Assembly: GCA_001918745.1 (NCBI GenBank)
Contig: MNGN01000045.1
Location: 42,829 to 106,828 of the forward strand
DNA length: 64,000 bases
Direction: 5' to 3'
Source: Crenarchaeota archaeon 13_1_40CM_3_52_17
Lineage (GTDB): Archaea > Thermoproteota > Bathyarchaeia > 40CM-2-53-6
Shown: positions 47,010-60,432 of the stretch, in pieces
Numbering within the stretch: position 1 is the stretch's first letter
Layout: every line of letters starts with the position of its first letter
The notes under the pieces: generated by a model
What the model was told of the DNA's origin: nothing
Seen by the model: the letters and a program-made list of their open reading frames with translations, nothing else
The model's database searches: none
Position numbers and translations under genes: made by a program

Positions 47010-49634
47010 TTGGCTCAGCCTCTGCCCTACATGGCCCTGAAAGACGCGCCAGTCCAGATCCGGCGAGCCGCCACCGTCGCCCAGATCTCCAGCAGCATCA
47101 CCCGCGCCCTCGGAATAATATTCACCACCCTAATCATAGCCACCCTCCCCACATGGGCCCCAGGCCTCCTCACCTACCAGACAATACCAGTCGGACTACT
47201 CGTCCTCGCGATCGGCTCGGTCATCGTCTCACGCAAAGGCAGCCGGATAAGAGAAGAGATCGCAGAACGAAAATTCGAAAAAGCCCGCAGCAGCACATTC
47301 ACCACCGCAATCCTAGGATTCGTAATAGGCGGCATCATCCCCGGCCTACTCTACATCTACCTCTACACCCGAATCGGCGACGTAATGGTCAAACGGACAC
47401 CAGACGACCCCAAAACAGTCTACCTCCTCCCACACCCAAGCGAGGGAATATTCCTCGGCCGATACCTCGGATGGATCGCAGCATACCTCCTCGTCCTCTA
47501 CATCGGCTACACCCAGCTATCACCAGGCCTCCGCGAAGTAAGCGACTGGCTCTCACCGGTCCTAGGCGTCCACTTCAACACGATGATCGTCGCCCTATTC
47601 CTCGTCTTCACCAACCCACTAACCTACCCCCCACTACTCTACCTCTGGACCTTCGCAGGATTCCTCGGCGGGCTAATCGCCGGCGGAAAAATCAGACGAG
47701 GCTTCTTAGTTGGCATGACAGTATACCTCTCCACCCTCGGAGCACTAGGCCTCGCAGCCCTCGCAATCTACCAGAACGTCAACCTCTCAACGCTCTCCAG
47801 CCTTCCCCCTCCACCACCAGGCTTCTCGATCATAAGCGCCACCACAGGACCCGTCACAGGCGACATCATCCCGATCCTCATCCAAGGCGCCTCTCCAACA
47901 AGCCAGATGGTCATCCAAGACGTCATACTGACCATGATCAGAAACGCGGGCCTAGTCTTCGCCGTAGCCACAATATCCGGTCGAGCAGCCTCCCTCTTCT
48001 GGCAAGGAGACGTTTTCATCCTCAAGACAATCTGGAAAACGATCAAGACAAAGAAAACAGCCCTGCCACAGAACACGGGCACTAGTACCTTTCCAAAGAA
48101 GGGCTTACTCCTACTCGCACTCGCAATTCTCCTTATGATCCCAACGTATCACTCGGTTAACCCACGACCGATAACCCAAGCTCCACCTAGCGGGCCCTAT
48201 CAGCAAAACCTCGCAATCGGACTAGACATGCTTGGCGCCCCGAACGCCAGCCTACGAATGACAAACCTCGACCTAACAAGCAAAGGCCTCGTCCTAGACA
48301 ACAATTACGCTGGAAACAATCTCTCGCTCTTCATAATCAACAACAACTATACGCGATTCCTCGGCACCAGCTCCAGTCTCGGCATACCAAGCTTCATCCT
48401 CGGCCTCTTCTCACAGCCCGCCCTGATCACGTTCTACACAGGAGACCCAGCCACGACTCGAGGAGAATCCGACAACGTCGCCGCACAATTCTCCCAAGCC
48501 CTTGGTGTCAGCTTCACGAAAGCATTCGCCGTTCCATCAGGCCAAGGCACTGTCACAATCTATGCGCCAAATCCTGAGCTCACAAACAACGACGCTCTCA
48601 CACGAGTTCTCGGCCTCCTTCCCAGCTCAAGCTTCTCCACCCTCATCAAACCGGCCAACCTCCAATCTCTCCAATATTTCGCGGCAATCGGCCTCGCAAG
48701 CATAAGCCTCCCAGCACCACTCAACAAAACGCCCACCCAAGCCTTCAGCTTCATCCTCAACACCCAATTCCCACGCCAATTCTACAAAGCAGGACAACAC
48801 TACCTCAGCCTGAAAACACTTCTTGGATTCCAGACTGGAATCGTGGGGGACACCAATTCAAACGCGTCCATCGTCTCCATCAGCTTCCAACGTGGAACGG
48901 TTCTCTACAGCCCGCTCGGGCTGACACCTCCCTACAACCCCATTTACAACAACTTCACTTCGACATACATCTACAATGCCACGATCACACCAAGATCAGA
49001 CTTCATGGCGAACTTCACCTATCCATTCGCCCCAAACATAACCATACAGAAAACCGTGAACCCGTTCAACGGACCTCTAGGCACCAGTCATAACATCCTT
49101 GTTACGATCCAGAACTTCGACAACGTCACAGTCACAAACCTCAACGTCACCGATGACCAGGCGCCACCCTCATACCAGAAAACGCTCGACATCTCACCGA
49201 ACGGAGTACAAACCGGCCAGTTCGCCAGTTTCCCTCCCGGACAGACACAATTCCTCAGCTATACTGCCACAACAAAAAGCAGCGGAATCTATGTTCTATC
49301 ACCTGCGAGTACGGAGTTCGTCTGGCAAGCATCGAATGGAACAAAGATCCGATACACGGTTACGACCGATAGCCCACTGATCTCGTCATCAAGCGGACCA
49401 TGGACACAGTTTACTAGAACGTTTACCGACCTCCAACCGTATTCCTATCTCCTCCTTCTCCCTCTTCTACTCACACCGATAATTGAACCTCTGAAACTTG
49501 TCCGAAGACATCGAAAGAAAAAACCGGAACCGTGGGTCAACACACCCGCAGAACCTCAAAACACACTGCCGCCGGCGCCTACGCAAGCCGGACCTGACAA
49601 AGGAGTCAATCCTCCCAACCCAACGGGTACTTGA
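47010..49634 (+). CDS. large polytopic membrane protein with sequon-rich extracytoplasmic domain and C-terminal anchor (hypothetical)
   Basis: 874 aa. It has about 8 N-terminal TM segments, then a ~450-aa region with more than 12 N-x-S/T sequons (for example NFDNVTVTNLNVTDD). A late TM (YSYLLLLPLLLTPII) is followed by a basic tail. The start is TTG at 47010 or ATG at 47031. Codons are extremely A/C-ending. Confidence 0.7.
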   Translation: MAQPLPYMALKDAPVQIRRAATVAQISSSITRALGIIFTTLIIATLPTWAPGLLTYQTIPVGLLVLAIGSVIVSRKGSRIREEIAERKFEKARSSTFTTAILGFVIGGIIPGLLYIYLYTRIGDVMVKRTPDDPKTVYLLPHPSEGIFLGRYLGWIAAYLLVLYIGYTQLSPGLREVSDWLSPVLGVHFNTMIVALFLVFTNPLTYPPLLYLWTFAGFLGGLIAGGKIRRGFLVGMTVYLSTLGALGLAALAIYQNVNLSTLSSLPPPPPGFSIISATTGPVTGDIIPILIQGASPTSQMVIQDVILTMIRNAGLVFAVATISGRAASLFWQGDVFILKTIWKTIKTKKTALPQNTGTSTFPKKGLLLLALAILLMIPTYHSVNPRPITQAPPSGPYQQNLAIGLDMLGAPNASLRMTNLDLTSKGLVLDNNYAGNNLSLFIINNNYTRFLGTSSSLGIPSFILGLFSQPALITFYTGDPATTRGESDNVAAQFSQALGVSFTKAFAVPSGQGTVTIYAPNPELTNNDALTRVLGLLPSSSFSTLIKPANLQSLQYFAAIGLASISLPAPLNKTPTQAFSFILNTQFPRQFYKAGQHYLSLKTLLGFQTGIVGDTNSNASIVSISFQRGTVLYSPLGLTPPYNPIYNNFTSTYIYNATITPRSDFMANFTYPFAPNITIQKTVNPFNGPLGTSHNILVTIQNFDNVTVTNLNVTDDQAPPSYQKTLDISPNGVQTGQFASFPPGQTQFLSYTATTKSSGIYVLSPASTEFVWQASNGTKIRYTVTTDSPLISSSSGPWTQFTRTFTDLQPYSYLLLLPLLLTPIIEPLKLVRRHRKKKPEPWVNTPAEPQNTLPPAPTQAGPDKGVNPPNPTGT

Positions 49635-49738
49635 GAGTCTTCACAATCGCGGATCCTCACTCGCATCCGAGCCTCTTCCCTGGCGTGTTTCCTATTTTAG
49701 CCCTGAAATCGCTTCACTACCAGTGAAGTTCCTCGTAG

Positions 49739-49760
49739 ACCCCTTCATTTCCACTGGAAC
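49739..49760 (-). promoter_or_regulatory. ORB-like box with G-string (minus strand GTTCCAGTGGAAATGAAGGGGT)
   Basis: Read directly. The core 11-mer at 49749-49759 is the exact reverse complement of 55353-55363. Confidence 0.45.
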
Positions 49761-49883
49761 TTATGGAAACGGTCGGATTACCCGCGAATACCCGTTCACG
49801 ACTAACGCCAATAGTGATGCGTGAGCCTTTTCTACATGTGAAAGGTGAACTGTGAAGTCCCTAGTTTTTCTCGAGGAACAAAG

Positions 49884-50306
49884 ATGAGACCACGACGATT
49901 GAAAGTGGAATTCTATGACCCGGAAGGCGTCAGACACTCCATCGCAATCGACGGTCCTGTGACAAGGGAGAAGGTGGCTAAGATATTGGACCTCGTTGAG
50001 TTGATGTCCGGAACGCCGCAGGCGTCGGCTACGGCTCTCGGGCTCTCCCCCCGAAAATTCGACAGACTGGCCAGCACAATCATATCCAATCTGAAGGGAA
50101 GAAGCTTCACATCACGTGACGCGAGAAAGATATTCGAAACCACCTTCAAGGAAAAGATACCCTTGAGCACGGTGTCCACATACCTAACGAGACTCACAGA
50201 CCGAGGGGTTCTTGAGAGACACCAAGAAAAGCTCGGCTTAGCTTACCAGGTCAGGCTTGATGAGCAGAAACAGTCTCTCGTTCCTGCTCCTTCCCTTCAG
50301 CCTTAG
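49884..50306 (+). CDS. hypothetical protein with C-terminal winged-helix domain
   Basis: MRPRRLKVEFYDPEGV...; the C-terminus is IPLSTVSTYLTRLTDRGVLERHQEKLGLAYQV. I prefer the ATG at 49884 over the listed GTG at 49845. Confidence 0.55.
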   Translation: MRPRRLKVEFYDPEGVRHSIAIDGPVTREKVAKILDLVELMSGTPQASATALGLSPRKFDRLASTIISNLKGRSFTSRDARKIFETTFKEKIPLSTVSTYLTRLTDRGVLERHQEKLGLAYQVRLDEQKQSLVPAPSLQP

Positions 50307-50991
50307 TAAAGCTCTGTTTCACGCGCTCCACAGTCGAGTATCGGAACGGGATCCGGGTCGGGTCTCGTCTAACATATCCCTCATCGAAGAGTTTCTTCAT
50401 CAAACGAGCCGTATGCTCCCTGGAACGCCCCACAACTCTTCCTATTTCTGGGGCGGACTTCGGACCTTGTTCCGCAAGAAGAGTGAGAACCTGGAGCTCC
50501 GTGGGAGTCGTTATTGAGTTCAATGAACCTGGTTGCACGACAGAAGGGTCGGTCGGAGTTGGAGCTTGGCCCCTAGCCGACTGCAGGACGGGTTGTTCGA
50601 GTTCCGATCTCTCTTCGAACTCCTTGGCTACGGTCGGGATTGTCGCCGGAATACGCAGAACTGCATCAGCAACCTCCCTAATCCTGTTCAACGACTCCCC
50701 GAGCAACTTCTCTGTTTTTTGAAGCCGCTCAAGCAACACCAGATCAGAAAGTTTGGACTGATCGCTCGATACCTTGAGCGTTCCAACCTGAATAGACAAG
50801 TCCTTCAAGCTCGCTTCGAAAGAGGTGAGCCTTGTCGAGAATACGTCGAAGAATAGCTTTGCAACGTCTCTATTTTCAATGAGGACCGGAGCCCCCGTTC
50901 CACCTGACCTTTTCCCTATCCCAAACATTTCTGTGACATCACGCGATATGGGCTGTGACGTCACCATAAGCTCGACAAATGCATTTAACAC
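50251..50991 (-). CDS. coiled-coil protein with C-terminal MarR/TrmB-like wHTH
   Basis: The C-terminus is TELQVLTLLAEQGPKSAPEIGRVVGRSREHTARLMKKLFDEGYVRRD. The likely start is the Met at 50928 (MFGIGKRSGG). There is a 56-nt convergent overlap with 49884..50306. Confidence 0.6.
   Translation of the reverse strand: MLNAFVELMVTSQPISRDVTEMFGIGKRSGGTGAPVLIENRDVAKLFFDVFSTRLTSFEASLKDLSIQVGTLKVSSDQSKLSDLVLLERLQKTEKLLGESLNRIREVADAVLRIPATIPTVAKEFEERSELEQPVLQSARGQAPTPTDPSVVQPGSLNSITTPTELQVLTLLAEQGPKSAPEIGRVVGRSREHTARLMKKLFDEGYVRRDPTRIPFRYSTVERVKQSFTKAEGKEQERETVSAHQA
50933..50964. promoter_or_regulatory. two palindromic boxes, GTGACATCAC (50933-50942) and GTGACGTCAC (50955-50964)
   Basis: Read directly. 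The centres are 22 bp apart, just upstream of the Met at 50928. A third exact GTGACGTCAC lies at 51177-51186. Confidence 0.45.
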
Positions 50992-51182
50992 TAACGATTG
51001 TGAGGTTGACCCCTACAAAAAGCCGTCACAAGTGATGGAGGCGTGACCTCTTCGTTGCATCATGATGTCAAGGGGATGACGTGTCGTGTCAAGTACCTTC
51101 TCAAGCTCGTCGGAAGGATCACTCGATCAGCAATACGCGCCCATCGGCGTGACTCATGTGATGCCTAATCACTTGTGTGACG

Positions 51183-51674
51183 TCACGTATCACGGTTTCT
51201 TCCGAACAGAGCCTGAAACGCATTCTCAAGGTCCTCGATAATGGAATCCACTGTCCTCTGATACACGCTAGGGTCAGATTGAGCCGCATCTCTGAGCTGC
51301 GAAGTGGAAGTCTTGAGACGTTCTGAAGCTTCCAGAAAGGGTGCGATGCTTGGCGATTCCGTTAGCCCACAGTAACCAAGGAGAAGAATGGTGTGAATTG
51401 CCTCCACAACGTTTTGTCTTGCTTGAGTTAGGGTCCTATTGAAGGATCCGCGGCTGATTCCTCTCTGATCTCGCCGCAATTGAGCCATATCACCGCGCGT
51501 TAGGCGTTTATTCGCCATATCATGTCCAAGCTGGTCTACCAGAAGCGTTTCGAACTGTGTTATAGTTAGATTACTCCGCTCCAACAGTGCTGAGAGTATC
51601 CTATCGCGAAGCGTTTCCACAATAACGGCACGCGTCCCCTCGTGCCAGCCTTTGGGCATTTCAGAATTCCCCAT
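51183..51674 (-). CDS. hypothetical protein, possible HTH
   Basis: 163 aa. QRGISRGSFNRTLTQARQNVVEAI resembles a sigma70-r4/LuxR-type recognition helix. Weak support. Confidence 0.5.
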   Translation of the reverse strand: MGNSEMPKGWHEGTRAVIVETLRDRILSALLERSNLTITQFETLLVDQLGHDMANKRLTRGDMAQLRRDQRGISRGSFNRTLTQARQNVVEAIHTILLLGYCGLTESPSIAPFLEASERLKTSTSQLRDAAQSDPSVYQRTVDSIIEDLENAFQALFGRNRDT

Positions 51675-51797
51675 GGATACGGTTTTGTATCCGTCACTAT
51701 TCTATCTTGCTCACCCTGGTCTCAATGACGCTGGCAAGTTACATCACGCTTATTCCGCAACTTTGACCCCTTCGAATTAGTCAAACGCGGGTCTTAC

Positions 51798-52904
51798 ATG
51801 GCCACAGGTGCAAGAACAGAATCAGGCAATTTCGTAGTGGACATGGTCTGCGACGTCTGCCGGGTCGAGGGCTTCGAGGTGGAGAAAAACGCACAGACAG
51901 GGGATTCGCCGAACCATTTCGTGGACATTCTCGCCTCTCGGAAGAAGGGCAAGAAGGTACAGAAAGTCGCTTTTGAGTGCTGGGAAGGAACTAGTCAAGT
52001 TGAAGGACGACAAGTGGAGAAGTTCGCGGCTCGCTTGAAAAGTCTAGGAATTCAGAGCGGAATCTACGTCTCCCCCAAAGGGTTCGGGGGCAACGCGGAA
52101 TTCATGGCCCGCAAGCTCGGCGTGGAACTCTGGGACCTAGCTAAGCTAAAGGAGAGGGTAGAAAACATCAAGGCCCCAGAGAGACACAAAGTTCCGGGGA
52201 CGCTACCTGTAGCCAGAGCTGCAGCGTCTCGCCTCTTAGCTCATGGCTTGGCGAACGGCGCTTTCCTCAGGCTATCCTCTATGCCCAAGCTTGAGTTTCG
52301 GCCATATTTCTTTGCCAATTTCCAGATCGATAATCAACGAAGAAAACTAGCGCTGGGAGTTCTCGTGTTTGACGGTGTCGATGGGCGGGTGTGCGACGCA
52401 GCTCTCTTCGAAGGACACATGGATGATCTTCCATCAACTGGCTTCTTTGTTGATTGTCTCGAGATCGAACCATCAACAGGTTCCATGCCGAAGTTGCCTC
52501 CTGAACTTGAGATGAAGAACACCGTCACAGTCGCGCCGGCAGGAGTAACCGAGGACATGATCCGATCTAAGACCAAGGAGACGGTAAGCGGTCATGACGA
52601 TGCAACCGTAACGGGGGTTCAACTGCTCCATATTCCCATAGTGACCTTGGAGATGCTTGCCGCGGGCAAATCCTATCGGAAGATCCTTCAAGCGGCCACA
52701 GGAAAGATGATCTGGGACGACACTCAGAAGTGTTCACTTTGTGATCAAAAGTCTAGGGCAATATGCGAGGTCTGTGGTGGGACGGTGTGTACTGAGCACG
52801 AGAGAACTTGCAGCTCCTGCCGCAAGCACCTTTGCACAGATTGCATGGTGACAAAGGGGATCGTAAACAAGATTCCGCTTTGCCCAACATGCAAGAATGC
52901 CTAG
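51798..52904 (+). CDS. Mrr-like restriction-endonuclease-fold domain fused to unknown middle domain and Cys-rich multi-zinc module
   Basis: The N-terminus is HFVDILAS...KVAFECWEGTSQVEGRQVEKFAARLKSLGIQSGIYVSPKGFGGNAEFMARKLGVELWDLAKL, a D...E-x-K/W-type PD-(D/E)xK layout as in Mrr_cat. The C-terminus is CSLCDQKSRAICEVCGGTVCTEHERTCSSCRKHLCTDCMVTKGIVNKIPLCPTC. Confidence 0.6.
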   Translation: MATGARTESGNFVVDMVCDVCRVEGFEVEKNAQTGDSPNHFVDILASRKKGKKVQKVAFECWEGTSQVEGRQVEKFAARLKSLGIQSGIYVSPKGFGGNAEFMARKLGVELWDLAKLKERVENIKAPERHKVPGTLPVARAAASRLLAHGLANGAFLRLSSMPKLEFRPYFFANFQIDNQRRKLALGVLVFDGVDGRVCDAALFEGHMDDLPSTGFFVDCLEIEPSTGSMPKLPPELEMKNTVTVAPAGVTEDMIRSKTKETVSGHDDATVTGVQLLHIPIVTLEMLAAGKSYRKILQAATGKMIWDDTQKCSLCDQKSRAICEVCGGTVCTEHERTCSSCRKHLCTDCMVTKGIVNKIPLCPTCKNA

Positions 52905-53009
52905 AGAAAGCCCGAATCCCTCTTACTGCTGCATAGTGAATCGCCCAATCTTGCGTACTAACCACTGAACATCATTCTTCATGGGTCATGAGGGACAGGA
53001 ACGAGGCCA

Positions 53010-53231
53010 CTATCTAGGAACATGGTTTTCAGCCAGTGCCGCCTTGGCGAGCCGCTGTATCGTCTCCTCATGTCTACTGATGTGAGCCATCATGTTCAAC
53101 CTCAGTCTTTGCATCGCTGCCCGAGCGGCATCTCGCGCGGCCTGCTCCATCAAAGGGGTAAGCCTCTCTTCCATCCTCTTCAGCAAAGCCTCCTCAAGAC
53201 GGAGAACCTCTTCCTCACGCAAAGTCTCCAT
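53010..53231 (-). CDS. small coiled-coil protein (hypothetical)
   Basis: 73 aa, Glu/Arg/Ala/Leu-rich. Its start is 5 nt after the stop of 53237..53482. Confidence 0.4.
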   Translation of the reverse strand: METLREEEVLRLEEALLKRMEERLTPLMEQAARDAARAAMQRLRLNMMAHISRHEETIQRLAKAALAENHVPR

Positions 53232-53236
53232 TCAAC

Positions 53237-53482
53237 TCACCTCCTCCGCGAAGCTACAGCAGTCGACTCGATTTCATCTATTATTGGATCAACCTTCACT
53301 GACTGGCGGGCGCACATCGCGCATTCCCAGACCCTGTCACAGGTGAAGTTCTCGTAATTGCAACATCGCCTGCGGAAGTAATCGTTCAGTTGATTCTCTC
53401 GATTGGCCTTTTTCCCAGTCATGCCAAACTCACCAACACAAAACCCATGAACTCTTACGTTGACTGTCCACAGCAGCATCAA
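53237..53482 (-). CDS. small Cys-rich protein (hypothetical)
   Basis: 81 aa, or 61 aa from the internal Met (MTGKKANRENQLNDYFRRRCCNYENFTCDRVWECAMC...). Confidence 0.35.
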   Translation of the reverse strand: MMLLWTVNVRVHGFCVGEFGMTGKKANRENQLNDYFRRRCCNYENFTCDRVWECAMCARQSVKVDPIIDEIESTAVASRRR

Positions 53483-53514
53483 CGGGACGACTAAAGCCTC
53501 CTGTAACTGGAAAC

Positions 53515-54099
53515 CTAGTCGGAAGGTTCCGAGGAGAACAGACCTCTAGCAAGGACGCTTGCAAGCCGCAAGGGTTCTGGCATTCGCGAGACGAATGCTG
53601 ATGCTTTCAGGATGGAACGAGCTTCGCGAGTTGAGCATCCGAACCGTTCAAAGAACACTGGACCCTCGTTGGGCATCGTCCGAACCTTGTGCAAGGAACC
53701 GAGTGATCTGATCAGTTCCCATCTCTTTCCCCAATCGGGAAAATGTTTGAACAGGGCACGCTTCACAGCCCTGTTATTAGGTCGGGAACCCACAACCACA
53801 ACTACTGGCGCTTTGCACAACTTCTGTATTTTCCAAGGGTCGATAAGATTGAACCCTCCAAAAGTCACGCCTAACAACAATACCGGAGTATGCAGAGACC
53901 CTCTTAGTAGAGACCCGGCCGTTCTAGTTGCGTCGAGTCCATCTACAGTAATCCAGTCAGTTCTTAGTTGTTGTAGATGAGCCCCTTTCAGCCACACAAC
54001 TAGGAGCGGGGCATGTCTGACCTTGTCATTGGTTTTCGGCGGAAACGGGCCGTCATCGATGCCAATACATCTAGAGACTAGTTTGATGTCTGAGGACAC
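53515..54099 (-). CDS. DUF99/UPF0215-family protein
   Basis: IGIDDGPF...ITVDGLDATRT...LLLGVTFGGFNLIDP...APVVVVVG matches my recollection of the DUF99 pattern. Its start overlaps the cdc6 3' end by 29 nt. Confidence 0.75.
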   Translation of the reverse strand: MSSDIKLVSRCIGIDDGPFPPKTNDKVRHAPLLVVWLKGAHLQQLRTDWITVDGLDATRTAGSLLRGSLHTPVLLLGVTFGGFNLIDPWKIQKLCKAPVVVVVGSRPNNRAVKRALFKHFPDWGKRWELIRSLGSLHKVRTMPNEGPVFFERFGCSTREARSILKASAFVSRMPEPLRLASVLARGLFSSEPSD

Positions 54100-55318
54100 T
54101 CCGTGGAACGTAGCTGAGAAGTCCTCGAACCATCTCGTCCGCGCTGAATGAAGTGTTCACCGCACGAGCTTCGACGCCCAGCCGTATCTTCTTTGTACGA
54201 CCGTACCTGCCGAAGCTGACTACTCGCGCGTTCAGCACCCCCATGATATCCAGCTCATTGAGCAGCCCGCTGACTCTTCGCTGGGTGAGAGGTTCGACTG
54301 AACCGGCGCCGCACAACTCTCGATACACCTCGTACACGTCCCCCGTTACCGAGCTCTCTTTCCTCGCGTTCTCCAGTTGCATTACTGAGATTAGAAGGAT
54401 TCGCGAGTGGAGTGGGAGGGATGACAAGGCTTCCGTCACACGGTCATGTTCGACTTTCTGTTGGGCTTCGCGGACGTGATTCTCTACTACGCGAGGCTCG
54501 CGTGATCGTTCGGCGATCTCAGCGGCCACTCTGAGGAGGTCGAGTGCACGTCGTGCGTCACCGTGTTCTCCTGCGGCCAAGGCTGCGCATAGGTGCAGAG
54601 CTCCTTGGTCCAGAATTCCGGTGCGAAGGGCAAGTTCTGCTCGTTCCTTTAGAATGTCGTATAGCTCATCTGAGGAGTATGGTTTGAACACGACCTCTTC
54701 CTCTCCTAGCGAGCTTAGGACTCTGGGGTCCAGGAAGTCTTTGAAGTGGAGGTCGTTTGATATTCCTATGAGCCCGATCCAGCCGTCGGCCAGTTTCTCG
54801 TTTATCCTGGTTAGTTCGTATAGCAGACTGTCGTCTTCGCTTCTCTTTACCAGCGCGTCTATCTCGTCTAGGACGACGAGGAAGGCGGAGCCACGTGATT
54901 GGAGCGCGTTTCTGAACCGGTCTAGGAGCTCACCTACAGCGAGTCCGGTGAATGGGACTTCTCGACCGAGAGATCTGCAGAGATCGGCGATAACCCTGTA
55001 GTTTGTTCCCGAGAGACGGCAGTTAATGTAGCTCGTATCGAGAGCTCGTCCGTGTTCGCGAGCCTTGCGCTGTAACCGATCTAGAACGAATCTTGTCACG
55101 ATTGTCTTCCCTGTTCCAGTCTTGCCGTAGGCGAAGAGGTTCGACACTCGATCCTTTGTAAGGGCTGGAGCGAGCACGGATCCGAGCCGGCGGATCTGCT
55201 CTTCCCGGTGTGGAAGGGTTGCGGGCATATAGTCATGTCTGAGGAGGTTTCTGTCGCGAAAGACCTCCCCTCCTGACAAGACTCTTTCGAAGATGAGATC
55301 TAATCCTTGCTGTGACAA
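54071..55318 (-). CDS. cdc6: Orc1/Cdc6 replication initiator
   Basis: 415 aa. FRDRNLLRHDYMPATLPHREEQI, Walker A YGKTGTGKT, Walker B LVVLDEID, sensor regions and a C-terminal winged helix. Confidence 0.95.
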   Translation of the reverse strand: MSQQGLDLIFERVLSGGEVFRDRNLLRHDYMPATLPHREEQIRRLGSVLAPALTKDRVSNLFAYGKTGTGKTIVTRFVLDRLQRKAREHGRALDTSYINCRLSGTNYRVIADLCRSLGREVPFTGLAVGELLDRFRNALQSRGSAFLVVLDEIDALVKRSEDDSLLYELTRINEKLADGWIGLIGISNDLHFKDFLDPRVLSSLGEEEVVFKPYSSDELYDILKERAELALRTGILDQGALHLCAALAAGEHGDARRALDLLRVAAEIAERSREPRVVENHVREAQQKVEHDRVTEALSSLPLHSRILLISVMQLENARKESSVTGDVYEVYRELCGAGSVEPLTQRRVSGLLNELDIMGVLNARVVSFGRYGRTKKIRLGVEARAVNTSFSADEMVRGLLSYVPRSVLRHQTSL

Positions 55319-55352
55319 AATCTGAAACAGTCCGGGTTTTCTGCGAGCCGGC

Positions 55353-55396
55353 TTCCAGTGGAATTAAGGGTTCTTGTAGAGAATTTCGTGTGGAAT
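55353..55396 (+). promoter_or_regulatory. ORB-like core TTCCAGTGGAATtaaGGGT (55353-55371) plus degenerate direct copy TTCGTGTGGAAT (55385-55396)
   Basis: Read directly in the cdc6 / 55533 divergent intergenic region. The two copies are 32 nt apart. Confidence 0.45.
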
Positions 55397-55532
55397 ACAC
55401 GATTCTACTAAACTACGCCATTGCAACACTGGTGTTTCTACGGTTACAGCCTGTCGCGACCCTTATCATCAACGGTCGGCACAATTTAGATACACGCACT
55501 GGCCAACAAGATCGGACACGCTGAACTCTGGC

Positions 55533-56657
55533 ATGACTTCTGTAGCTCTTTCAGAACTCCTGCGACAAGGAAGAGTCATTGATCCAAACCTCCGATTGAT
55601 GTCTGTCCAATGCCCAAAATGTCGGAGTCAAGATGTTCGGCTCAAGCCTCACATTATAGTCATAACTTCAGAAGAAGGGAGGGAAAAACAGATTGCCACC
55701 ATAGCGTGCAAAAGCTGTGGCAACTGGTGGGAAGACAGTCCCGAGAATCTCGCAGTATCTTTTGAACGGCTCCCCCCGTTGGTCTCCGAACTAAAAGGAG
55801 CACCTGAGATTCGAGACGCCGGAATATCCGTCCATATTCAGACCAATCTACACTTGCGTAGCCAGACAAACGCTGAACAAGTTATTCACTGTCTGCTTGA
55901 TGCTGGAGGACTGTTTATTCCTGAAACATTTGAAGGGGACAATGGGCGAAGAACTCTGTTCAACGCGAGCGACCTAACCGTCCCCTTGAATGGCTGGACT
56001 AACGGATGGATCGTTGGCAAGGATAGACTCCCCGGAATCATGACAAAACGACTGAAGCCTTTCAAGGTGCTCTTTAACGTCATGACGACCGATTTTGTAA
56101 TGTTCGATTATCTTAGCTTGTATTTTTGTCTGGACAAGAATGGAGTTTTGGATCCCAAACGCGCCAAGTTATTCGATCAATTCGTTGGTCCGGCTAAGCT
56201 CGTCACCGTTGCGAAGTCATTGTATGGTGCGGTCGGAGCGAATCGTGGAGACATAAGAAACGACTTCCACGAAGAACCTCTTGGCACGTGGAAAAAAGAC
56301 AATGCGAGAGGATGGAACCCCCCAAAAGTGAGACATGCACTCCAAGGGTTGTTTTGGGCGAATTTCTTCGGTCCCGAATACGTTGACATGTGGGGGCGAG
56401 AAAAAATGTTGTCAGCGCCTTGTTACAGGGCCGAAGAACTTCCGGACGGTGGGGTGATACTCCAGTTATCAGCATCACCTTTCGATGCTTCTAAGCCTGA
56501 ATACGCAGACACGAAACAGCGGCTCTACGACTACTTGGGTGAAGATGCCTTCACTGGCAAGACTCTACCGAAGTTCAGAATAGGAGAGGGACGAAAGAAG
56601 AGAGACGCAAGACCCCTCAGAGAAACCGGAGGGGTTAGGGACAACATTTTCAACTGA
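55533..56657 (+). CDS. zinc-ribbon-containing hypothetical protein
   Basis: 374 aa. An N-terminal CPKCRSQDV...(29 aa)...CKSCGNWW is followed by a large uncharacterised domain (GLFWANFFGPEYVDMWGREKMLSAP...). Confidence 0.6.
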   Translation: MTSVALSELLRQGRVIDPNLRLMSVQCPKCRSQDVRLKPHIIVITSEEGREKQIATIACKSCGNWWEDSPENLAVSFERLPPLVSELKGAPEIRDAGISVHIQTNLHLRSQTNAEQVIHCLLDAGGLFIPETFEGDNGRRTLFNASDLTVPLNGWTNGWIVGKDRLPGIMTKRLKPFKVLFNVMTTDFVMFDYLSLYFCLDKNGVLDPKRAKLFDQFVGPAKLVTVAKSLYGAVGANRGDIRNDFHEEPLGTWKKDNARGWNPPKVRHALQGLFWANFFGPEYVDMWGREKMLSAPCYRAEELPDGGVILQLSASPFDASKPEYADTKQRLYDYLGEDAFTGKTLPKFRIGEGRKKRDARPLRETGGVRDNIFN

Positions 56658-56781
56658 AACCAAATCCAAGATTCCAAGCGGCTCCTCTGGAAATAAAGAT
56701 GTCCGAAATTTACGACAAGACTAAGGGTTCTCGTACAATGATTTCAACTGGACAGACCAAAAACTCGATCGTGGACGCGGG

Positions 56782-57102
56782 CTACTGAACCCTGATTTCA
56801 ACGCCAACGGTTCTCTTGATGAGATCGGCTAACAGGTCAACCTGGGACTTGCTACCGCGTCTTGTTGGAATCGATACAACCAGTGGGAGTTCGATCTCCT
56901 TCTTTCCTTGTCCAACCTTGTCCTTAATCCAATCGAAGACCGTGTCGGTGACAATCACAAGCGAGACTGTCTGCTTGTTTTTGATGTCTTCGAAGGTCTT
57001 GACGGCCTCGTCTTCAGACTTCACGATCCAGCTGTTCTTGACCCCGCCGAGTTTGAAGTAGATCGCTGTCTCCTTGTCCGCCATGACTCCAATTTTTCCC
57101 AT
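56782..57102 (-). CDS. atpF: A/V-type ATP synthase subunit F
   Basis: 106 aa. MGKIGVMADKETAIYFKLGGVKNSWIV...SLVIVTDTVFDWI is a typical subunit F pattern. Confidence 0.75.
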   Translation of the reverse strand: MGKIGVMADKETAIYFKLGGVKNSWIVKSEDEAVKTFEDIKNKQTVSLVIVTDTVFDWIKDKVGQGKKEIELPLVVSIPTRRGSKSQVDLLADLIKRTVGVEIRVQ

Positions 57103-57113
57103 GGCTCGCTTGC

Positions 57114-57800
57114 CTACTTGAATATCCAGCCCGTTTCGCGCGACCAGAACAGGAGGTCAAGATCCGCTAACGGTATTCGTATCTCCCGCGAGAAACCACG
57201 AAGCTTCTCCTCAATCTCCAAATAGCGTTTCTTCGTGATCGAAACCGGCACCTCAGAAATAACATCCAGCCTCTTGAGGTTTCTCAGAATATGCCTGTCT
57301 AGGATGGCGAATTCCTCCCCGAGCCCGACGTTGCGGAGAAAATGGCTGGCCTCTTTGTAGCCTAGTCCCCTCACATTCTCCACCATCCATTCCCGCAACT
57401 CGAACAGGTTTGCGAAGCTGGAGAGGTGGGACTTGAGGAAGAGCTTGCCATCTTTGCTGAATGTCGCTCTAGCCTCGACAATATACCTCGCCTTACTGTC
57501 ACCGAACCGGACATCGTTTAGCTGCGGTTGAATCTCGCTAGCCTCTCCTTTCAAGAGAAGGCTTCGTTCTTTGAGCCGGGACACTGCAGCCCAGCAGGTT
57601 TTCGCGGACGACTGCGGTGTCAGCAGGCAGAAGCAGAGTTCGGCAAAAACATCATCGTCATTGCGATTGAGAACCTGTTTGAATTCGTTTAGTCGTGTCT
57701 GAATAGCATCGCGTTTCTCGCCGTAAAGTATCTGGAGTTCCTGAACAGATTTCTCGCGTTCTCTCGGTGAGAGTTCCATACTAGAATTGTTTGAGAACAT
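57114..57800 (-). CDS. ogg: archaeal-type 8-oxoguanine DNA glycosylase/lyase (Ogg2-like, HhH-GPD)
   Basis: FCLLTPQSSAKTCWAAV, GLGYKEASHFLRNVGLGEEFAILDRHI. Confidence 0.8.
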   Translation of the reverse strand: MFSNNSSMELSPREREKSVQELQILYGEKRDAIQTRLNEFKQVLNRNDDDVFAELCFCLLTPQSSAKTCWAAVSRLKERSLLLKGEASEIQPQLNDVRFGDSKARYIVEARATFSKDGKLFLKSHLSSFANLFELREWMVENVRGLGYKEASHFLRNVGLGEEFAILDRHILRNLKRLDVISEVPVSITKKRYLEIEEKLRGFSREIRIPLADLDLLFWSRETGWIFK

Positions 57801-58254
57801 CCGTCTTCTCCATTATTCGGACGCAGTAGTAGCAGCGGAGCCGGAGAGGGTCCTGTTTTTCCACACTGAACCTTGGCTCAACAGGCTCAGCGTTAGACAC
57901 GCACGCTGGATTTGAACAACGAACGATTCCTCTGATGGAATCCGGTAGCTTGACCCTGGTCTTCTCAGCGACCTCGTAGTCTCGAATAATACTGATGGTT
58001 GCGCTCGGCGCTATCAACGCGATCTTATCCACCTCGACGGGTTTGAGCTCTCGGTTCTCAACCTTGACGATGTCCTTCTTGGTCTGCTTCTTCGAGATCA
58101 CGTTCATGGCCACGCTCACGATGTGTCCTTCACGACCGTCTATTCCGAGAATCTTGAGCACGTCCAAGGCATGGCCGGCTAAAATGTGGTCGATCACTGT
58201 TCCATTACGGATTTTCTTAACGTAGAGCTCCTTTGGGCCGGTTCCCTTGGACAA
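57781..58254 (-). CDS. pyrI: aspartate carbamoyltransferase regulatory subunit
   Basis: LYVKKIRNGTVIDHILAGHALDVLKILGI and the zinc domain CSNPACVSN...LRCYYC. It overlaps ogg by 20 nt. Confidence 0.9.
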   Translation of the reverse strand: MSKGTGPKELYVKKIRNGTVIDHILAGHALDVLKILGIDGREGHIVSVAMNVISKKQTKKDIVKVENRELKPVEVDKIALIAPSATISIIRDYEVAEKTRVKLPDSIRGIVRCSNPACVSNAEPVEPRFSVEKQDPLRLRCYYCVRIMEKTDVLKQF

Positions 58255-58323
58255 GACCTTGAACCTCTCCGGCAGGAGCTAGGTTTCATTCTTAATTCCT
58301 TGCTTGAAACAAGACGGGGGATT

Positions 58324-58639
58324 ATGACGGTTGCGTCTCAAGAGTTGAGCTTTCGGACACATCACGAAGGAGATATTCTCGACGTCACAAGAGAGGATCC
58401 AGAGAATCGTCGAATCCTCAAAGATGAAGAATGGAGTTGCAACGATCTTCGTGGCCGGATCAACCGGAGCCCTAACAACAATCGAGTTTGAACCAGGACT
58501 TTTGGGCCGACTTGCCCCTAGCGCTAGAGAGACTCGCGCCTAAAGACGCACCTTACGAGCATGGCAACAGATCGTCTTTCTTGAGCTAGATGTTAGACCG
58601 CGGGACCGAACCGTCATTGTCCAGCTAGTTGGCGAGTAG
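58324..58639 (+). pseudogene. decayed yjbQ/UPF0047-family gene (at least 2 frameshifts plus a ~40-codon internal deletion)
   Basis: Family-like pieces lie in three frames. They read MTVASQELSFRTHHEGDILDVTRE, then IQRIVESSKMKNGVATIFVAGSTGALTTIEFEPGL, then FWADLPLALERLAPKDAPYEHGN, then WQQIVFLELDVRPRDRTVIVQLVGE*. The segment normally found between Y-x-H and (LG)TWQ is missing. Confidence 0.6.
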
Positions 58640-58654
58640 CAGACCTAGAACACG

Positions 58655-58860
58655 CACCCCTACCCCCCTCCTTCCTCTGCAGACTTTGAAGAATCTCCAG
58701 TCCTTTGCGTACAGAATTTAAGATGAATCTACTATGGAAAATGTACAGGTCAGCATAAATCATCGTGATGCAAGTTAACCTTGCCAGTAAGTTTTCTAAA
58801 AGTAACATACACACCCAATGTTAGTTGAGGATTTGCACTGGAAACCATGGGGTGGGGGTA
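58655..58860. other. candidate replication-origin module (inverted ORB-like boxes plus AT-rich spacer)
   Basis: 58655-58684 and 58831-58860 form an imperfect inverted repeat (19/30). The right arm reads TTGCACTGGAAACcatGGGGTGGGGGT. The spacer 58685-58830 is 36% G+C by hand count. Confidence 0.45.
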
Positions 58861-58923
58861 GACCTCCTCTTAAATTGACAATGTTCGAATCCGTGTTTAG
58901 AACGCTGAGGGTTGGTAGGTCTA

Positions 58924-60432
58924 TCACTGGAAGTCGACCATCTTGACGTCAAGGGTTTTCAGGTTAACAACGGGAAGGATTCCCGGCTTAGGGACCAGCC
59001 CCATCCGTTTCTGATAATCCGTCTGCCCTTGCCAGGCACCGCTATTCACTATCGTTGTTCCCCTGTAGACGCCTGCACCTGAAACGTGTATGTGTCCGGA
59101 TGTAAAAACGTCCGGGACTCTATCTATCACCAGGAAATCCTCCTGCTCGGGACCAATCGGCGTCATCTTCCCGTACTCCGGAGACAGGTGTCGGGCCCGT
59201 AGCTGGTACTCCATTACCTCTACTGGACGTTGATAGTCGAGCCCTGGGACTCCACTCAGAATATCCATCAGGCTAGTTCCATGGTAGAGTAGAAACTGGA
59301 CCCCGTGCAAACGGACCTCTGCTGGATCTCCTAGTGGAACAATCTTCCGCGAGTCGTAAACAGGTCCGGCAAAATCTCTCGAGATAGCGGGTTGCGGAAG
59401 GGCCTGGCGTACCGCATCATGATTCCCAGGTATCAAAACCACATCCATGTACTCTGGAATCTCGCTGACGAATTTCGCTGCTATTCGGTACTGTTCATAG
59501 ATGTCGGGAACCGCAAGGTCCACCTCTTGGCGAGGATAGATTCCGATCCCGTCGACAAGGTCGCCCCCGATCAGAACATACTTCACTCTCTCGGCGACTT
59601 CTCGCTGGTTCGGGGTTCCAATCTCTCCTTTCAGCCAGCTTAGAACCCGGCGGAACTCGTCCTCGAGAAACACCTTGCTCCCGATGTGAACGTCGGATAT
59701 CAATGCGGCATAGATCTCTTCGCTAGCGTGGGCCGGCTTTCTATCCGGTATCTCGGGCAGAACAATGCTTTCCGCGATCAGGAGAGGACCAGCAGTTTTC
59801 CGGGCTTGGATGTAAATGACTTGGTCTCTGACGATCTTCCTCGCCATCTCGTACACCGTAGAGTTCTGCCGCCCAACGAGGACAGTGGCTTCATCCTCAT
59901 AGTCGTCAACTGTCAGGAAGATCCTGTCACCTTTCTCTCTCTTTTCGAGGACCATACAGATGAAGCGGCCTCGACCATTTGATCCGCCTGAAAGCGCGTC
60001 GGAAATGGTCCCGGCGTTTCGGGTGTCCATTCTCTGCCTGAAGAGCAGGCTCATCTTGTCGAAACGGTTTCTGAAATAATGGAGAAAATCATCAAAGGCA
60101 CCAGTCGTTCCGAGCTTGCCCGTAGGGTCCGAGACAACTTCTAGCCGAGACTCAAGCTCCTCAGCAAAACGTCGGCCACGTCCCAAACCACCACCCTCAG
60201 TCCCCCTACTCTTCCCCAAGAGGTCTAGCTGTTCGGCAGCTCTGAGGACGAGGTCCCTGCTGATCGATGAGGGCCGCGGCTCTACGGCTCCGGCGACTCG
60301 AAGGACTTCCTTGACAAGAGGGTCAAGCGGGCTTGCTACGCTGACCTCCATGAGGGCCTTGAATGCGTCGCTTTCCATCTGGAACCCTGCTTCCAGTATG
60401 GTGCCGATTGCTCTCTTCCTCTCTTCAGACAT
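58924..60432 (-). CDS. polB: DNA polymerase II (PolD) small subunit DP1
   Basis: 502 aa with the calcineurin-like phosphoesterase motifs ALISDVHIGS, GGDLVDG and PGNHD. The N-terminal and OB regions are typical of DP1. Confidence 0.9.
   Translation of the reverse strand: MSEERKRAIGTILEAGFQMESDAFKALMEVSVASPLDPLVKEVLRVAGAVEPRPSSISRDLVLRAAEQLDLLGKSRGTEGGGLGRGRRFAEELESRLEVVSDPTGKLGTTGAFDDFLHYFRNRFDKMSLLFRQRMDTRNAGTISDALSGGSNGRGRFICMVLEKREKGDRIFLTVDDYEDEATVLVGRQNSTVYEMARKIVRDQVIYIQARKTAGPLLIAESIVLPEIPDRKPAHASEEIYAALISDVHIGSKVFLEDEFRRVLSWLKGEIGTPNQREVAERVKYVLIGGDLVDGIGIYPRQEVDLAVPDIYEQYRIAAKFVSEIPEYMDVVLIPGNHDAVRQALPQPAISRDFAGPVYDSRKIVPLGDPAEVRLHGVQFLLYHGTSLMDILSGVPGLDYQRPVEVMEYQLRARHLSPEYGKMTPIGPEQEDFLVIDRVPDVFTSGHIHVSGAGVYRGTTIVNSGAWQGQTDYQKRMGLVPKPGILPVVNLKTLDVKMVDFQ

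What the first reader, a model, noticed from the sequence alone, without database searches (positions are those of the whole stretch)
49700..58940. Family of ORB-like boxes concentrated in intergenic DNA around cdc6
Three boxes share TTsCAsTGGAAw-N3-4-GGG(G)T. They are 49739-49760 (minus strand GTTCCAGTGGAAATGAAGGGGT), 55353-55371 (TTCCAGTGGAATTAAGGGT) and 58833-58853 (TTGCACTGGAAACCATGGGGT). The 11-mer at 49749-49759 is the exact reverse complement of 55353-55363. A given 11-mer is expected well under once in 64 kb on both strands. Weaker relatives are TTCGTGTGGAAT (55385-55396), TCCTCTGGAAAT (56683-56694), TTCCTCTGCAGA (58672-58683) and CACTGGAAG (58925-58933). All lie in or at the edge of non-coding DNA. 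From memory the core matches the TCCAGTGGAAA(C/T) ORB/mini-ORB core described for Pyrococcus and Sulfolobus origins; that recollection needs checking. The spread over 9 kb suggests either several Orc1/Cdc6 sites (an origin plus autoregulation) or two origin-like loci bracketing the cdc6 block.
Basis: partly seen in the sequence, partly recalled or inferred. Interest (0 to 1): 0.6.

Follow-up and report, generated by a model that had tools for sequence, protein, structure and literature searches.

The report
Bathyarchaeal replication origin split around cdc6
The boxes are genuine binding-site motifs (ORBs) for the archaeal replication initiator Orc1/Cdc6. They mark the chromosome's replication origin in an uncultured soil archaeon. 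Genome rearrangements have scattered an ordinary, once-compact origin over 9 kb.

Summary
All three boxes sit at the stated coordinates. The exact 11-mer occurs twice against 0.02 expected, and every strong site is intergenic.

The window comes from a soil Bathyarchaeia genome. Its Cdc6 (54071-55318, minus strand) is an Orc1-1 orthologue.

A full-ORB matrix built from 52 sites in related genomes hits the window three times only:
- 49736-49760(-)
- 58832-58856(+)

The last two are inverted, with their G-runs pointing outward. They flank 148 bp that hold the most AT-rich and least stable 100 bp of the whole window. This is a canonical origin core, lying beside the PolD small-subunit gene and 3.4 kb from cdc6.

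The same ORB pair, at 147-169 bp spacing, is conserved in 20 related loci. In sister lineages it lies directly upstream of cdc6. Inversions moved it in this lineage.

The cdc6-proximal box is a dyad-only mini-ORB next to the probable cdc6 TATA box, which suggests autoregulation. The 49.7 kb ORB is solitary and always travels with a small winged-helix gene.

Two of the weaker boxes come from a 1357-bp strain-variable insertion in the cdc6 promoter.

This is a new member of a known kind. No binding or origin firing was tested.

The parts
58659..58683 (-). ORB-L. Full origin recognition box (TCTGCAGAGGAAGGAGGGGGGTAGG) with the dyad next to the DUE and the G-string on the far side. It forms the left arm of the origin core.
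   Evidence: Matrix score 25.4 bits. Orthologous ORB is near-invariant in 20 loci (alignment A1). Outward-facing pair with ORB-R at 150 bp.
58684..58831 (.). Probable duplex unwinding element (DUE) between the two inverted ORBs. It contains conserved internal blocks: TGTACAGG at 58742-58749, TAAAT, and TAACC..AGTAA.
   Evidence: 63.5% AT against 48.1% for the window. 58710-58809 is the most AT-rich (68%) and least stable 100-bp window of all 64 kb (dG -120.8; window mean -142.8, sd 5.7). Internal blocks are conserved in A1.
58832..58860 (+). ORB-R. Full ORB with an extended G-string (TTTGCACTGGAAACCATGGGGTGGGGGT).
   Evidence: Matrix score 29.6 bits. Conserved in 20 loci. An independent contig covering 58274-58978 is identical.
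58924..60432 (-). PolD small subunit (DP1) gene. Its 3' end abuts the origin core.
   Evidence: NCBIfam NF003118, E 8.7e-140, above the curated cut-off.
54071..55318 (-). orc1/cdc6 initiator gene, an Orc1-1 orthologue.
   Evidence: Pfam Cdc6_C, Cdc6_lid and AAA domains. Best solved-structure matches are S. solfataricus Cdc6-1 (2QBY_A, 381 bits) and A. pernix ORC1 (2V1U_A, 380 bits), against 200 bits for Orc1-3.
55353..55363 (+). cdc6-proximal mini-ORB: a perfect dyad TTCCAGTGGAA, 35-45 nt upstream of the TTG start. On the cdc6 strand it lies immediately downstream of the TATA-like TTAATT.
   Evidence: Exact dyad. Conserved at -33 to -58 in 27 of the 28 related loci with Cdc6 at least 78% identical (one substitution in L010 and L032; two substitutions in L017). 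Under 6 bits on the full-ORB matrix, so it is dyad-only.
55362..55378 (-). Conserved block TACAAGAACCCTTAATT (cdc6 strand). Inferred BRE/TATA of the cdc6 promoter. 55365-55378 is also the left direct repeat of the insertion.
   Evidence: GTAC(A/G)AGAAC(C/T)(C/G)TTA is conserved upstream of cdc6, even in the ~62% identity clade that has no dyad. The promoter role is inference.
55385..55396 (+). Second, degenerate mini-ORB (cdc6 strand ATTCCACACGAA) upstream of the TATA-like block. In this genome it is the copy brought in with the insertion.
   Evidence: It aligns with GTCCAGTTGAAAT, TTCCACACGAAT and TTCCACATGAAAC of relatives (A2).
55365..56721 (.). 1357-bp strain-variable insertion in the cdc6 promoter, carrying a 374-aa orphan gene (55533-56657, +). 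It is bounded by direct repeats TAAGGGTTCT(T/C)GTA at 55365-55378 and 56722-56735. The decayed dyad copy at 56683-56694 is its right end.
   Evidence: Direct repeats. Diverged duplicate of the promoter module (A2). The empty-site joint 55364->56722 is seen in three metagenome runs, and depth over the insert is ~10 against 25-70 in the flanks.
56722..56770 (-). Native copy of the promoter-upstream module, with mini-ORB GTCCAGTTGAA at 56743-56753. The insertion has displaced it from cdc6.
   Evidence: Nearly identical to the cdc6-adjacent sequence of L003-L008, L028 and L029.
49736..49760 (-). ORB_w. An abutting half-site TTATGGAAAC lies at 49761-49770.
   Evidence: 30.4 bits, the best hit in the window. 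Invariant columns in 14 loci while the flanks vary (A3). It stays next to the winged-helix gene through every rearrangement seen.
49713..49727 (.). Palindrome TTCACTACCAGTGAA beside ORB_w. With the GTGAA repeats at 49837-49857, it is probably the operator of the winged-helix protein.
   Evidence: The only TTCAC-N5-GTGAA in the window (expected 0.08). Its TTCAC/GTGAA arms are conserved in A3, invariant apart from a single-letter change in two loci. TTCAC/GTGAA boxes also lie upstream of the orthologous gene in distant relatives.
49884..50306 (+). Small winged-helix DNA-binding protein gene (140 aa) that is always linked to ORB_w.
   Evidence: Weak Pfam Penicillinase_R hit. AF2 model with a C-terminal winged helix, pLDDT 70. 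Foldseek finds only generic wHTH regulators. 603 homologues, all unnamed.

Best explanation
The boxes are binding sites for the Orc1-1-type initiator encoded at 54071-55318. Together they are the remains of one oriC1-type chromosomal replication origin that rearrangements have pulled apart.

(1) Working origin core, 58659-58860. Two full ORBs lie in inverted orientation. Their dyads face a 148-bp AT-rich DUE and their G-strings point outward. By analogy with Sulfolobus oriC1, one Orc1 monomer binds each ORB with fixed polarity, and the two load MCM onto the DNA between them.

(2) cdc6-proximal site, 55353-55396. This is a perfect dyad without a G-string directly after the probable cdc6 TATA box, plus a degenerate mini-ORB upstream of it. 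Orc1 bound there would block the promoter, giving negative autoregulation.

(3) ORB at 49736-49760. This is the third ORB of the ancestral origin, comparable to ORB1. It stayed with the promoter region of a small winged-helix gene when the locus was rearranged. Its most likely present role is a stand-alone high-affinity Orc1 site that regulates or marks that gene.

Shown here: sequence, statistics, conservation, architecture, composition and synteny history.
Inferred: Orc1 binding, MCM loading, origin firing, autoregulation, and the role of the solitary ORB.
For: - Motif identity with published ORBs.
- The initiator is an Orc1-1 orthologue. The two proteins solved on ORB DNA are its best matches.
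- Exactly three full ORBs in 64 kb, all intergenic and far above chance.
- An outward-facing ORB pair at 147-169 bp spacing in the window and 20 related loci.
- The ORBs are near-invariant while the surrounding alignment averages 57% column identity.
- The inter-ORB DNA holds the least stable and most AT-rich 100 bp of the window, a measure independent of the motif.
- The core lies next to the PolD DP1 gene.
- In the ~80% identity clade, ORB-L, DUE, ORB-R, the mini-ORB and the proximal dyad all lie within 320 bp upstream of cdc6.
- In distant relatives L021, L027 and L030, the wHTH gene and the first two ORBs are contiguous. The third (ORB-R) passes the 14-bit threshold in L021 and L027. In L030 only a weaker ORB-R-like site is seen by eye.
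- The proximal dyad is conserved next to a TATA-like block.
- ORB_w is invariant in 14 loci while its flanks vary.
- The literature states that DUE-flanking ORBs of opposite polarity direct MCM loading between them.
Against: - No experimental data. No RNA runs were found, so no transcription start is mapped.
- GC skew over 64 kb is inconclusive. The cumulative minimum lies near 59-61 kb, but one strongly C-rich gene dominates it.
- The origin core is 3.4 kb from cdc6, not adjacent to it.
- In Pyrococcus, a single mini-ORB is bound only weakly and is not occupied in vivo. The proximal dyad may therefore need a helper site.
- The cdc6 TATA assignment is inferred from position and conservation only.
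- Some archaea replicate without their origin or Cdc6 (title and abstract of PMC5663688). Presence of an origin therefore does not prove its use.
Confidence: 0.78

Rival explanations
1. Two separate replication origins bracket the cdc6 block, one at about 49.7 kb and one at about 58.7 kb. Each is fired by the same Orc1.
For: The 49736-49760 ORB is the best-scoring ORB in the window and is strongly conserved. Multiple origins per chromosome are known in archaea.
Against: The 49.7 kb intergenic region has only one full ORB and no inverted partner within 260 bp. It is 51% AT, with no unstable segment. The rest of its conserved sequence looks like a promoter and operator: a TATA-like block and TTCAC/GTGAA boxes. 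In distant relatives this ORB is simply the third ORB of the single origin. In Sulfolobus, both DUE-flanking ORBs are individually required.
Confidence: 0.07
2. The origin core is active, but the two outlying sites (the 55353 dyad and the 49736 ORB) are functionless relics of the ancestral compact origin.
For: Both sites are explained historically by rearrangement. Isolated mini-ORBs in Pyrococcus are not bound in vivo. Orphan ORBs are also reported in Methanomassiliicoccales without an assigned role.
Against: Both are invariant or nearly so across lineages whose Cdc6 proteins differ by about 20% and whose flanking intergenic DNA has diverged. In contrast, the displaced dyad copy inside the insertion has visibly decayed: TTCCAGAGGAG in the window and TTCGACAGGAA in L001. 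That shows what an unselected copy looks like.
Confidence: 0.12
3. The boxes are chance matches, or the operator of an unrelated transcription factor, and have nothing to do with replication.
For: The dyad is a short palindrome-like sequence. Three 1-mismatch copies occur inside genes.
Against: Exact dyad: 2 against 0.02 expected. Three 25-30 bit full-ORB hits against a simulated maximum averaging 10.3. Letter-for-letter identity to published ORBs. Location beside an Orc1-1 orthologue and PolD DP1. Inverted pair around the weakest duplex in the window.
Confidence: 0.02

Closest known systems
Sulfolobus/Saccharolobus oriC1 (Orc1-1 with ORB1, ORB2 and ORB3; the ORB3-DUE-ORB2 core is about 130 bp)
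   Same: The same ORB type (dyad plus GGGGT G-string). Three ORBs in the ancestral layout. Two inverted ORBs flank an AT-rich DUE of similar size (148 bp here). The initiator is an Orc1-1 orthologue (381 bits to 2QBY_A). The DUE contains a conserved internal motif.
   Different: In this genome the core is 3.4 kb from the initiator gene and the third ORB is 9 kb away. The mid-DUE motif (A)TGTACAGG shares only a T(A/G)TACA core with the Sulfolobus ucm ATTATACAAAC, and it is not enriched in the window. No UBP homologue was sought. Nothing was tested experimentally.
Pyrococcus/Thermococcales oriC (ORB and mini-ORB clusters by cdc6 and the PolD dp1 gene)
   Same: A mini-ORB core TTCCAGTGGAA(C/A)T. 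A mixture of long ORBs and 13-bp mini-ORBs. The origin neighbours both cdc6 and the PolD small-subunit gene.
   Different: Pyrococcus has many mini-ORBs clustered in one 5-kb region. Here there are only three full ORBs and two to three mini-ORBs, and rearrangement has separated the pieces.
Methanomassiliicoccales predicted origins (ORBs on both sides of orc1/cdc6.1, plus orphan ORBs)
   Same: ORB GTTCCAGTGGAAATGA-AGGGGT is identical to window 49739-49760. ORBs lie both upstream and downstream of the initiator gene. Solitary ORBs occur away from any partner. Some ORBs carry an extra GGGGGT extension, as ORB-L and ORB-R do here.
   Different: A different phylum. Those origins are also only predicted. 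There the ORB pairs sit closer together (39-256 bp).
Haloarchaeal oriC1 (Halo-ORB with an extended G-string; a downstream ORB cluster that regulates origin activity in Haloarcula hispanica)
   Same: Only the DUE-flanking ORBs carry an extended second G-run. There is precedent for ORB elements away from the DUE acting in regulation rather than in initiation.
   Different: The haloarchaeal ORB core differs (TT[TC]CACC[GCT]GAAAC). No regulatory role has been shown here.

Membership tests
Archaeal oriC1-type replication origin (ORB / DUE / Orc1-1) | Repeats that match the ORB consensus: a mini-ORB dyad TCCAGTGGAAA followed by a GGGGT G-string | tested here: met
   Three sites of 25-30 bits on a matrix built from 52 related sites. 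They match the published consensus sequences, and one is identical to a published ORB.
Archaeal oriC1-type replication origin (ORB / DUE / Orc1-1) | At least two ORBs of opposite polarity flanking an AT-rich unwinding element | tested here: met
   58659-58683(-) and 58832-58856(+) lie 150 bp apart. The DNA between them is 63.5% AT and contains the least stable 100 bp of the window.
Archaeal oriC1-type replication origin (ORB / DUE / Orc1-1) | A cognate Orc1/Cdc6 initiator gene next to the origin | tested here: inconclusive
   An Orc1-1 orthologue is present, but it is 3.4 kb from the core in this genome. It is directly adjacent (within 320 bp) in sister lineages. The separation is explained by inversions.
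Archaeal oriC1-type replication origin (ORB / DUE / Orc1-1) | Architecture conserved in related genomes | tested here: met
   The ORB pair occurs at 147-169 bp spacing in 20 related loci. ORB columns are invariant in A1. The map of full ORBs shows 2-3 per locus and almost none elsewhere.
Archaeal oriC1-type replication origin (ORB / DUE / Orc1-1) | Sequence-specific binding of Orc1/Cdc6 to the ORBs | not testable with these tools
   This needs EMSA, footprinting or ChIP with the Bathyarchaeia protein.
Archaeal oriC1-type replication origin (ORB / DUE / Orc1-1) | Replication actually starts there (marker-frequency peak, 2D gels, initiation-point mapping, skew switch) | tested here: inconclusive
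   Only GC skew over 64 kb could be examined. The cumulative minimum lies near 59-61 kb, but one C-rich gene dominates it. The metagenome runs are held as contigs with flat depth.
Initiator autoregulation through an ORB in its own promoter | An initiator site overlapping the core promoter of the initiator gene | tested here: inconclusive
   The perfect dyad lies directly downstream of a conserved TATA-like TTAATT, 35-45 nt before the start codon. The transcription start is not mapped, and no RNA runs were available.
Sulfolobus ucm / UBP element inside the DUE | An 11-bp ucm consensus (ATTATACAAAC) midway in the DUE, recognised by UBP | tested here: not met
   The conserved mid-DUE block here is (A)TGTACAGG or TATACAGG, which shares only a 6-nt core with the ucm. 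TGTACRRG is not enriched in the window (6 against 4.9 expected). No UBP homologue was searched for.

The most novel reading that the evidence does not exclude
The origin may be functionally split. Under this reading, the solitary ORB together with the winged-helix gene and its TTCAC/GTGAA boxes is a conserved, movable origin module. The winged-helix protein would be a Bathyarchaeia-specific origin-associated factor. Its sites sit between ORB_w and ORB-L in distant relatives. It would couple Orc1 occupancy to transcription, or act on the origin core from 9 kb away. A second point is that the cdc6 promoter/mini-ORB module may be a recurrent integration target for foreign gene cassettes. Both readings are compatible with the data. 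Neither is shown by it.
Probability: 0.15. Interest if true: 0.6.

Novelty: new member of a known kind. Interest (0 to 1): 0.35.

Why it matters
- Three literature searches on archaeal origins turned up no description of a Bathyarchaeia origin; the one search aimed at Bathyarchaeota found three papers that hold all the terms, none with them in title or abstract. The coordinates and the clade-specific ORB matrix (TTTCCAGTGGAAACAGAGGGGTGGG) give a practical way to anchor and orient Bathyarchaeia genomes assembled from metagenomes.
- They also allow growth-rate estimates from coverage for this abundant, uncultured soil and sediment group.
- The locus is a clear natural example of how an archaeal origin can be taken apart by inversions and insertions. 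Each piece (the core pair, the promoter dyad and the solitary ORB) stays under selection, which argues that the pieces have separable functions.
- The find is otherwise textbook: ORBs near cdc6.

Tried and rejected
- Rfam scan of the whole window: no RNA family. An RNA explanation was dropped.
- ARAGORN called a 95-nt tRNA-Thr at 55120-55214, antisense inside the cdc6 coding sequence. It has no Rfam support and is treated as a false positive.
- My first matrix used the wrong dyad-to-G-string spacing (4 instead of 5). It captured only 4 training sites and was discarded.
- The ucm-like motif idea: TGTACRRG is not enriched. It is kept only as a lead.
- GC skew is uninformative at this scale.
- The winged-helix protein has no informative family, PDB or fold match beyond generic wHTH regulators. 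A Cdt1/WhiP-like identity is not supported.
- The 374-aa insert gene has no Pfam, NCBIfam or PDB match and only 23 homologues. Their neighbourhoods are not origin-linked. One homologue follows an RHS/YD-shell toxin-like gene. The gene is therefore cargo, not an origin factor or a recognisable integrase.
- No RNA-seq runs contain this sequence, so transcription starts could not be mapped.
- PMC3089459 contained none of the search terms.
- The exact order of inversions between the three gene arrangements could not be resolved into a single event.

Full report
**Observation.**
The 11-mer TTCCAGTGGAA occurs exactly twice, at 49749-49759(-) and 55353-55363(+). Only 0.02 occurrences are expected, and none of 100 dinucleotide-preserving shuffles reaches two. 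With one mismatch allowed there are 8 matches at 6 sites against 1.58 expected. The three extra sites (9914, 29723, 35245) lie inside ORFs and have no G-run.

**Whose DNA this is.**
The ORF at 54071-55318(-) is an Orc1/Cdc6 protein, with Cdc6_C, Cdc6_lid and AAA+ domains. A scan of one genome per species returned 37 loci encoding relatives. Nearly all are soil or sediment Bathyarchaeia genomes assembled from metagenomes, at 57-95% protein identity. Among solved structures the best matches are S. solfataricus Cdc6-1/Orc1-1 (2QBY_A, 381 bits) and A. pernix ORC1 (2V1U_A, 380 bits). Orc1-3 scores 200 bits, and the 1FNN and 1W5S proteins score about 100. The protein is therefore an Orc1-1 orthologue, the paralogue that recognises classical ORBs.

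**Are the boxes ORBs?**
- Pyrococcus mini-ORB 'TTCCAGTGGAACT', with invariant TTCC and GAA (PMC1904270)
- DoriC common motif TCCA[CG]T[TG]GAAA[TC][GA]AAGGGGT (PMC4164010)
- archaeal consensus CTTCCAGTGGAAACGAAAGGGGT, and a Methanomassiliicoccales ORB GTTCCAGTGGAAATGA-AGGGGT that is identical to window 49739-49760 (PMC4153887)
- the G-string as a recognised ORB component (PMC1868953)

I built a 25-nt matrix from 52 distinct sites in the related loci, not from the window. Its consensus is TTTCCAGTGGAAACAGAGGGGTGGG, with a fixed 5-nt gap between the dyad and GGGG. It hits the window three times: 49736-49760(-) at 30.4 bits, 58832-58856(+) at 29.6 bits and 58659-58683(-) at 25.4 bits. The next hit scores 11.1 bits. 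In simulated sequence the best score averages 10.3 and reaches 20.0 at most in 100 runs. All three hits are intergenic.

There it carries a long G-string.

The cdc6-proximal box scores under 6 bits. It has a perfect dyad, but its GGGT is one position out of register.

**The origin core.**
ORB-L (58659-58683, minus strand) and ORB-R (58832-58856, plus strand) are inverted. Their dyads face inward and their G-strings point outward, 150 bp apart. The same outward-facing pair, spaced 147-169 bp, is found in 20 related loci.

In an alignment of 20 such cores the ORB columns are invariant or nearly so, while the mean column identity is 57%. Short blocks inside the spacer are also conserved: TGTACAGG, TAAAT, and TAACC..AGTAA (A1).

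Independently of any motif, 58710-58809 is the most AT-rich 100-bp window (68%) in all 64 kb. It is also the least stable, at -120.8 kcal/mol against a mean of -142.8 with sd 5.7.

Both DUE-flanking ORBs carry a second G-run (GGGGTGGGGG and GGGGGGTAGGGG). The solitary ORB does not. This pattern is also noted in haloarchaea and Methanomassiliicoccales.

The gene abutting ORB-R (58924-60432, minus strand) is the PolD small subunit. That is a typical origin neighbour.

This is the architecture described for Sulfolobus oriC1. There, monomeric Orc1-1 binds each ORB with fixed polarity and MCM is loaded between opposed ORBs (PMC12141716; PMC6742236).

Independent soil-metagenome contigs reproduce 58274-58978 exactly.

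**Why the boxes are spread over 9 kb.**
Synteny mapping and inspection of the intergenic sequences show three things.

1. In the ~80% identity clade (L010-L013, L019, L032, L033) the order is PyrI(-), yjbQ(+), ORB-L, DUE, ORB-R, a degenerate mini-ORB, the TATA-like block, the perfect dyad, then cdc6. All of the origin elements lie within about 320 bp of cdc6.
2. In the window's own clade (93-95% identity) the block [AtpF-Ogg-PyrI-yjbQ-ORB-L-DUE-ORB-R] is inverted. One breakpoint falls within about 10 nt of the end of ORB-R's G-string. The core therefore now lies 2.4-4.5 kb from cdc6, next to dp1. At least two inversions or translocations are needed, and I could not reduce them to one event.
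3. In more distant relatives (L021, L027, L030) the winged-helix gene, ORB_w(+) and ORB-L(-) sit side by side, followed by the DUE. ORB-R(+) passes the 14-bit threshold in L021 and L027. In L030 only a weaker ORB-R-like site is seen by eye. This gives a three-ORB origin like Sulfolobus ORB1-3. In L027 and L030 the module lies upstream of cdc6, with the winged-helix gene divergent from it (in L027 a small ORF-like stretch intervenes). In L021 the same module sits about 2.9 kb upstream of cdc6.

Across about 600 kb of related sequence the matrix finds 2-3 full ORBs per locus and almost nothing else.

**The cdc6-proximal site.**
On the cdc6 strand the sequence reads ...TACAAGAACCCTTAATTCCACTGGAAGCC...(35 nt)...TTG. 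The block GTAC(A/G)AGAAC(C/T)(C/G)TTA(A/T) is conserved upstream of cdc6 in every clade. That includes the ~62% clade, which has no dyad there. An in-frame TAA inside it closes the reading frame.

I therefore read TTAATT as the cdc6 TATA box. This is inference.

The dyad sits between the TATA box and the expected transcription start. That is the position from which archaeal repressors block polymerase recruitment (established knowledge). A second, degenerate mini-ORB lies about 20 nt upstream of the TATA box (55385-55396). Both are conserved in the loci with at least 78% Cdc6 identity.

A single mini-ORB binds Pyrococcus Cdc6 only weakly. The pair may therefore act together.

**The solitary ORB (49736-49760).**
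It lies about 125 nt upstream of the ATG of a 140-aa winged-helix protein (49884-50306). In 14 aligned loci several elements are conserved while the remaining columns vary (A3):
- the ORB and an abutting TGGAA half-site
- the palindrome TTCAC-N5-GTGAA (arms invariant apart from a single-letter change in two loci), which is unique in the window against 0.08 expected
- a TTTTCTAC TATA-like block
- three GTGAA repeats (the first and third invariant apart from a single-letter change in two loci; the middle one more variable)

The ORB moves with this gene when the block is relocated, as in L020.

The region is 51% AT and has no partner ORB. I therefore do not regard it as a second origin.

The protein models as a C-terminal winged helix (pLDDT 70). 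It resembles only generic regulators such as Fur, MarR, BlaI, RosR and STIV F93, and no match reaches E <= 1e-3.

**The two remaining 'weak' boxes.**
The window carries two diverged copies of the promoter-upstream module. They are separated by a 374-aa orphan gene. Direct repeats TAAGGGTTCT(T/C)GTA bound a 1357-bp segment at 55365-56721.

Three metagenome runs contain the empty-site joint 55364->56722. Depth over the insert is about 10, against 25-70 in the flanks. The insertion is therefore a strain polymorphism.

55385-55396 belongs to the incoming copy. 56683-56694 is a decayed copy of the dyad at the other end of the insert. L001 has the same junctions with a different cargo gene, and L009 has a third cargo gene at this position.

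The decay of the displaced dyad contrasts with the invariance of the copies still next to genes. That contrast is the best available argument that those copies are under selection.

**What is not shown.**
No binding, no transcription start and no initiation data exist. No RNA runs hold this sequence. GC skew is uninformative at 64 kb. The resemblance of the mid-DUE block to the Sulfolobus ucm (ATTATACAAAC) rests on a 6-nt core. It has no enrichment support.

**Verdict.**
This is a real, canonical oriC1-type origin of an uncultured Bathyarchaeia genome. My literature searches found no description of a Bathyarchaeia origin, which is not proof that none exists. It is a new member of a known kind, with an instructive history of rearrangement.

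Noticed in passing
window 58325-58628 (+): A yjbQ/UPF0047-like gene next to ORB-L is a pseudogene here. It has three frame changes and an internal deletion of about 30 aa. It is intact in L004, L006, L029 and L010-L016, and frameshifted in L003 as well.
   Followed up: yes
window 55533-56657 (+): The 374-aa orphan carried by the promoter insertion has an N-terminal CxxC...CxxC zinc ribbon and no Pfam, NCBIfam or PDB match. Only 23 homologues exist among 5.8 billion proteins. One homologue sits directly after a >2489-aa RHS/YD-shell protein (L041), which hints at an immunity-type cargo gene.
   Followed up: partly
window 55365-55378 and 56722-56735; L001 8121-8135 and 9942-9956; L009 upstream of cdc6: The cdc6 promoter/mini-ORB module seems to be a recurrent insertion point. 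Three genomes carry three different cargo genes at this position: the 374-aa orphan, a 416-aa FG-GAP-like secreted protein, and a 699-aa SPFH-like protein. Two of them have the same diverged duplicated junctions. The mechanism is unknown.
   Followed up: partly
window 50930-51190: The intergenic DNA upstream of the MarR/TrmB-like gene (50251-50991, minus strand) is packed with GTGAC/GTCAC palindromes (TGTGACATCACG, TGTGACGTCACC, GTGACGTCACG). It is probably an operator array.
   Followed up: no
window 47010-49634 (+): An 874-aa ORF has an extreme GC skew (about -0.3) and no family match. It is conserved in relatives at 56-90% identity. It dominates the local cumulative skew curve.
   Followed up: no
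window 55120-55214 (+): ARAGORN calls a 95-nt tRNA-Thr(TGT) antisense inside the cdc6 coding sequence. Rfam finds nothing there, so it is very likely a false positive.
   Followed up: partly
window 52908-53010: Metagenome contigs from three runs skip 101 bp between the end of the Mrr-like nuclease gene and the next small ORF. This is a second indel polymorphism in the population.
   Followed up: no
window 51183-51674 (-), 50251-50991 (-), 49884-50306 (+): The trio of a 163-aa unknown protein, a MarR/TrmB-like protein with a long N-terminal extension, and the small winged-helix protein stays linked to cdc6 and the origin in most clades down to 57% Cdc6 identity (the winged-helix member was not detected in several ~62% loci). 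This holds despite repeated rearrangement.
   Followed up: partly
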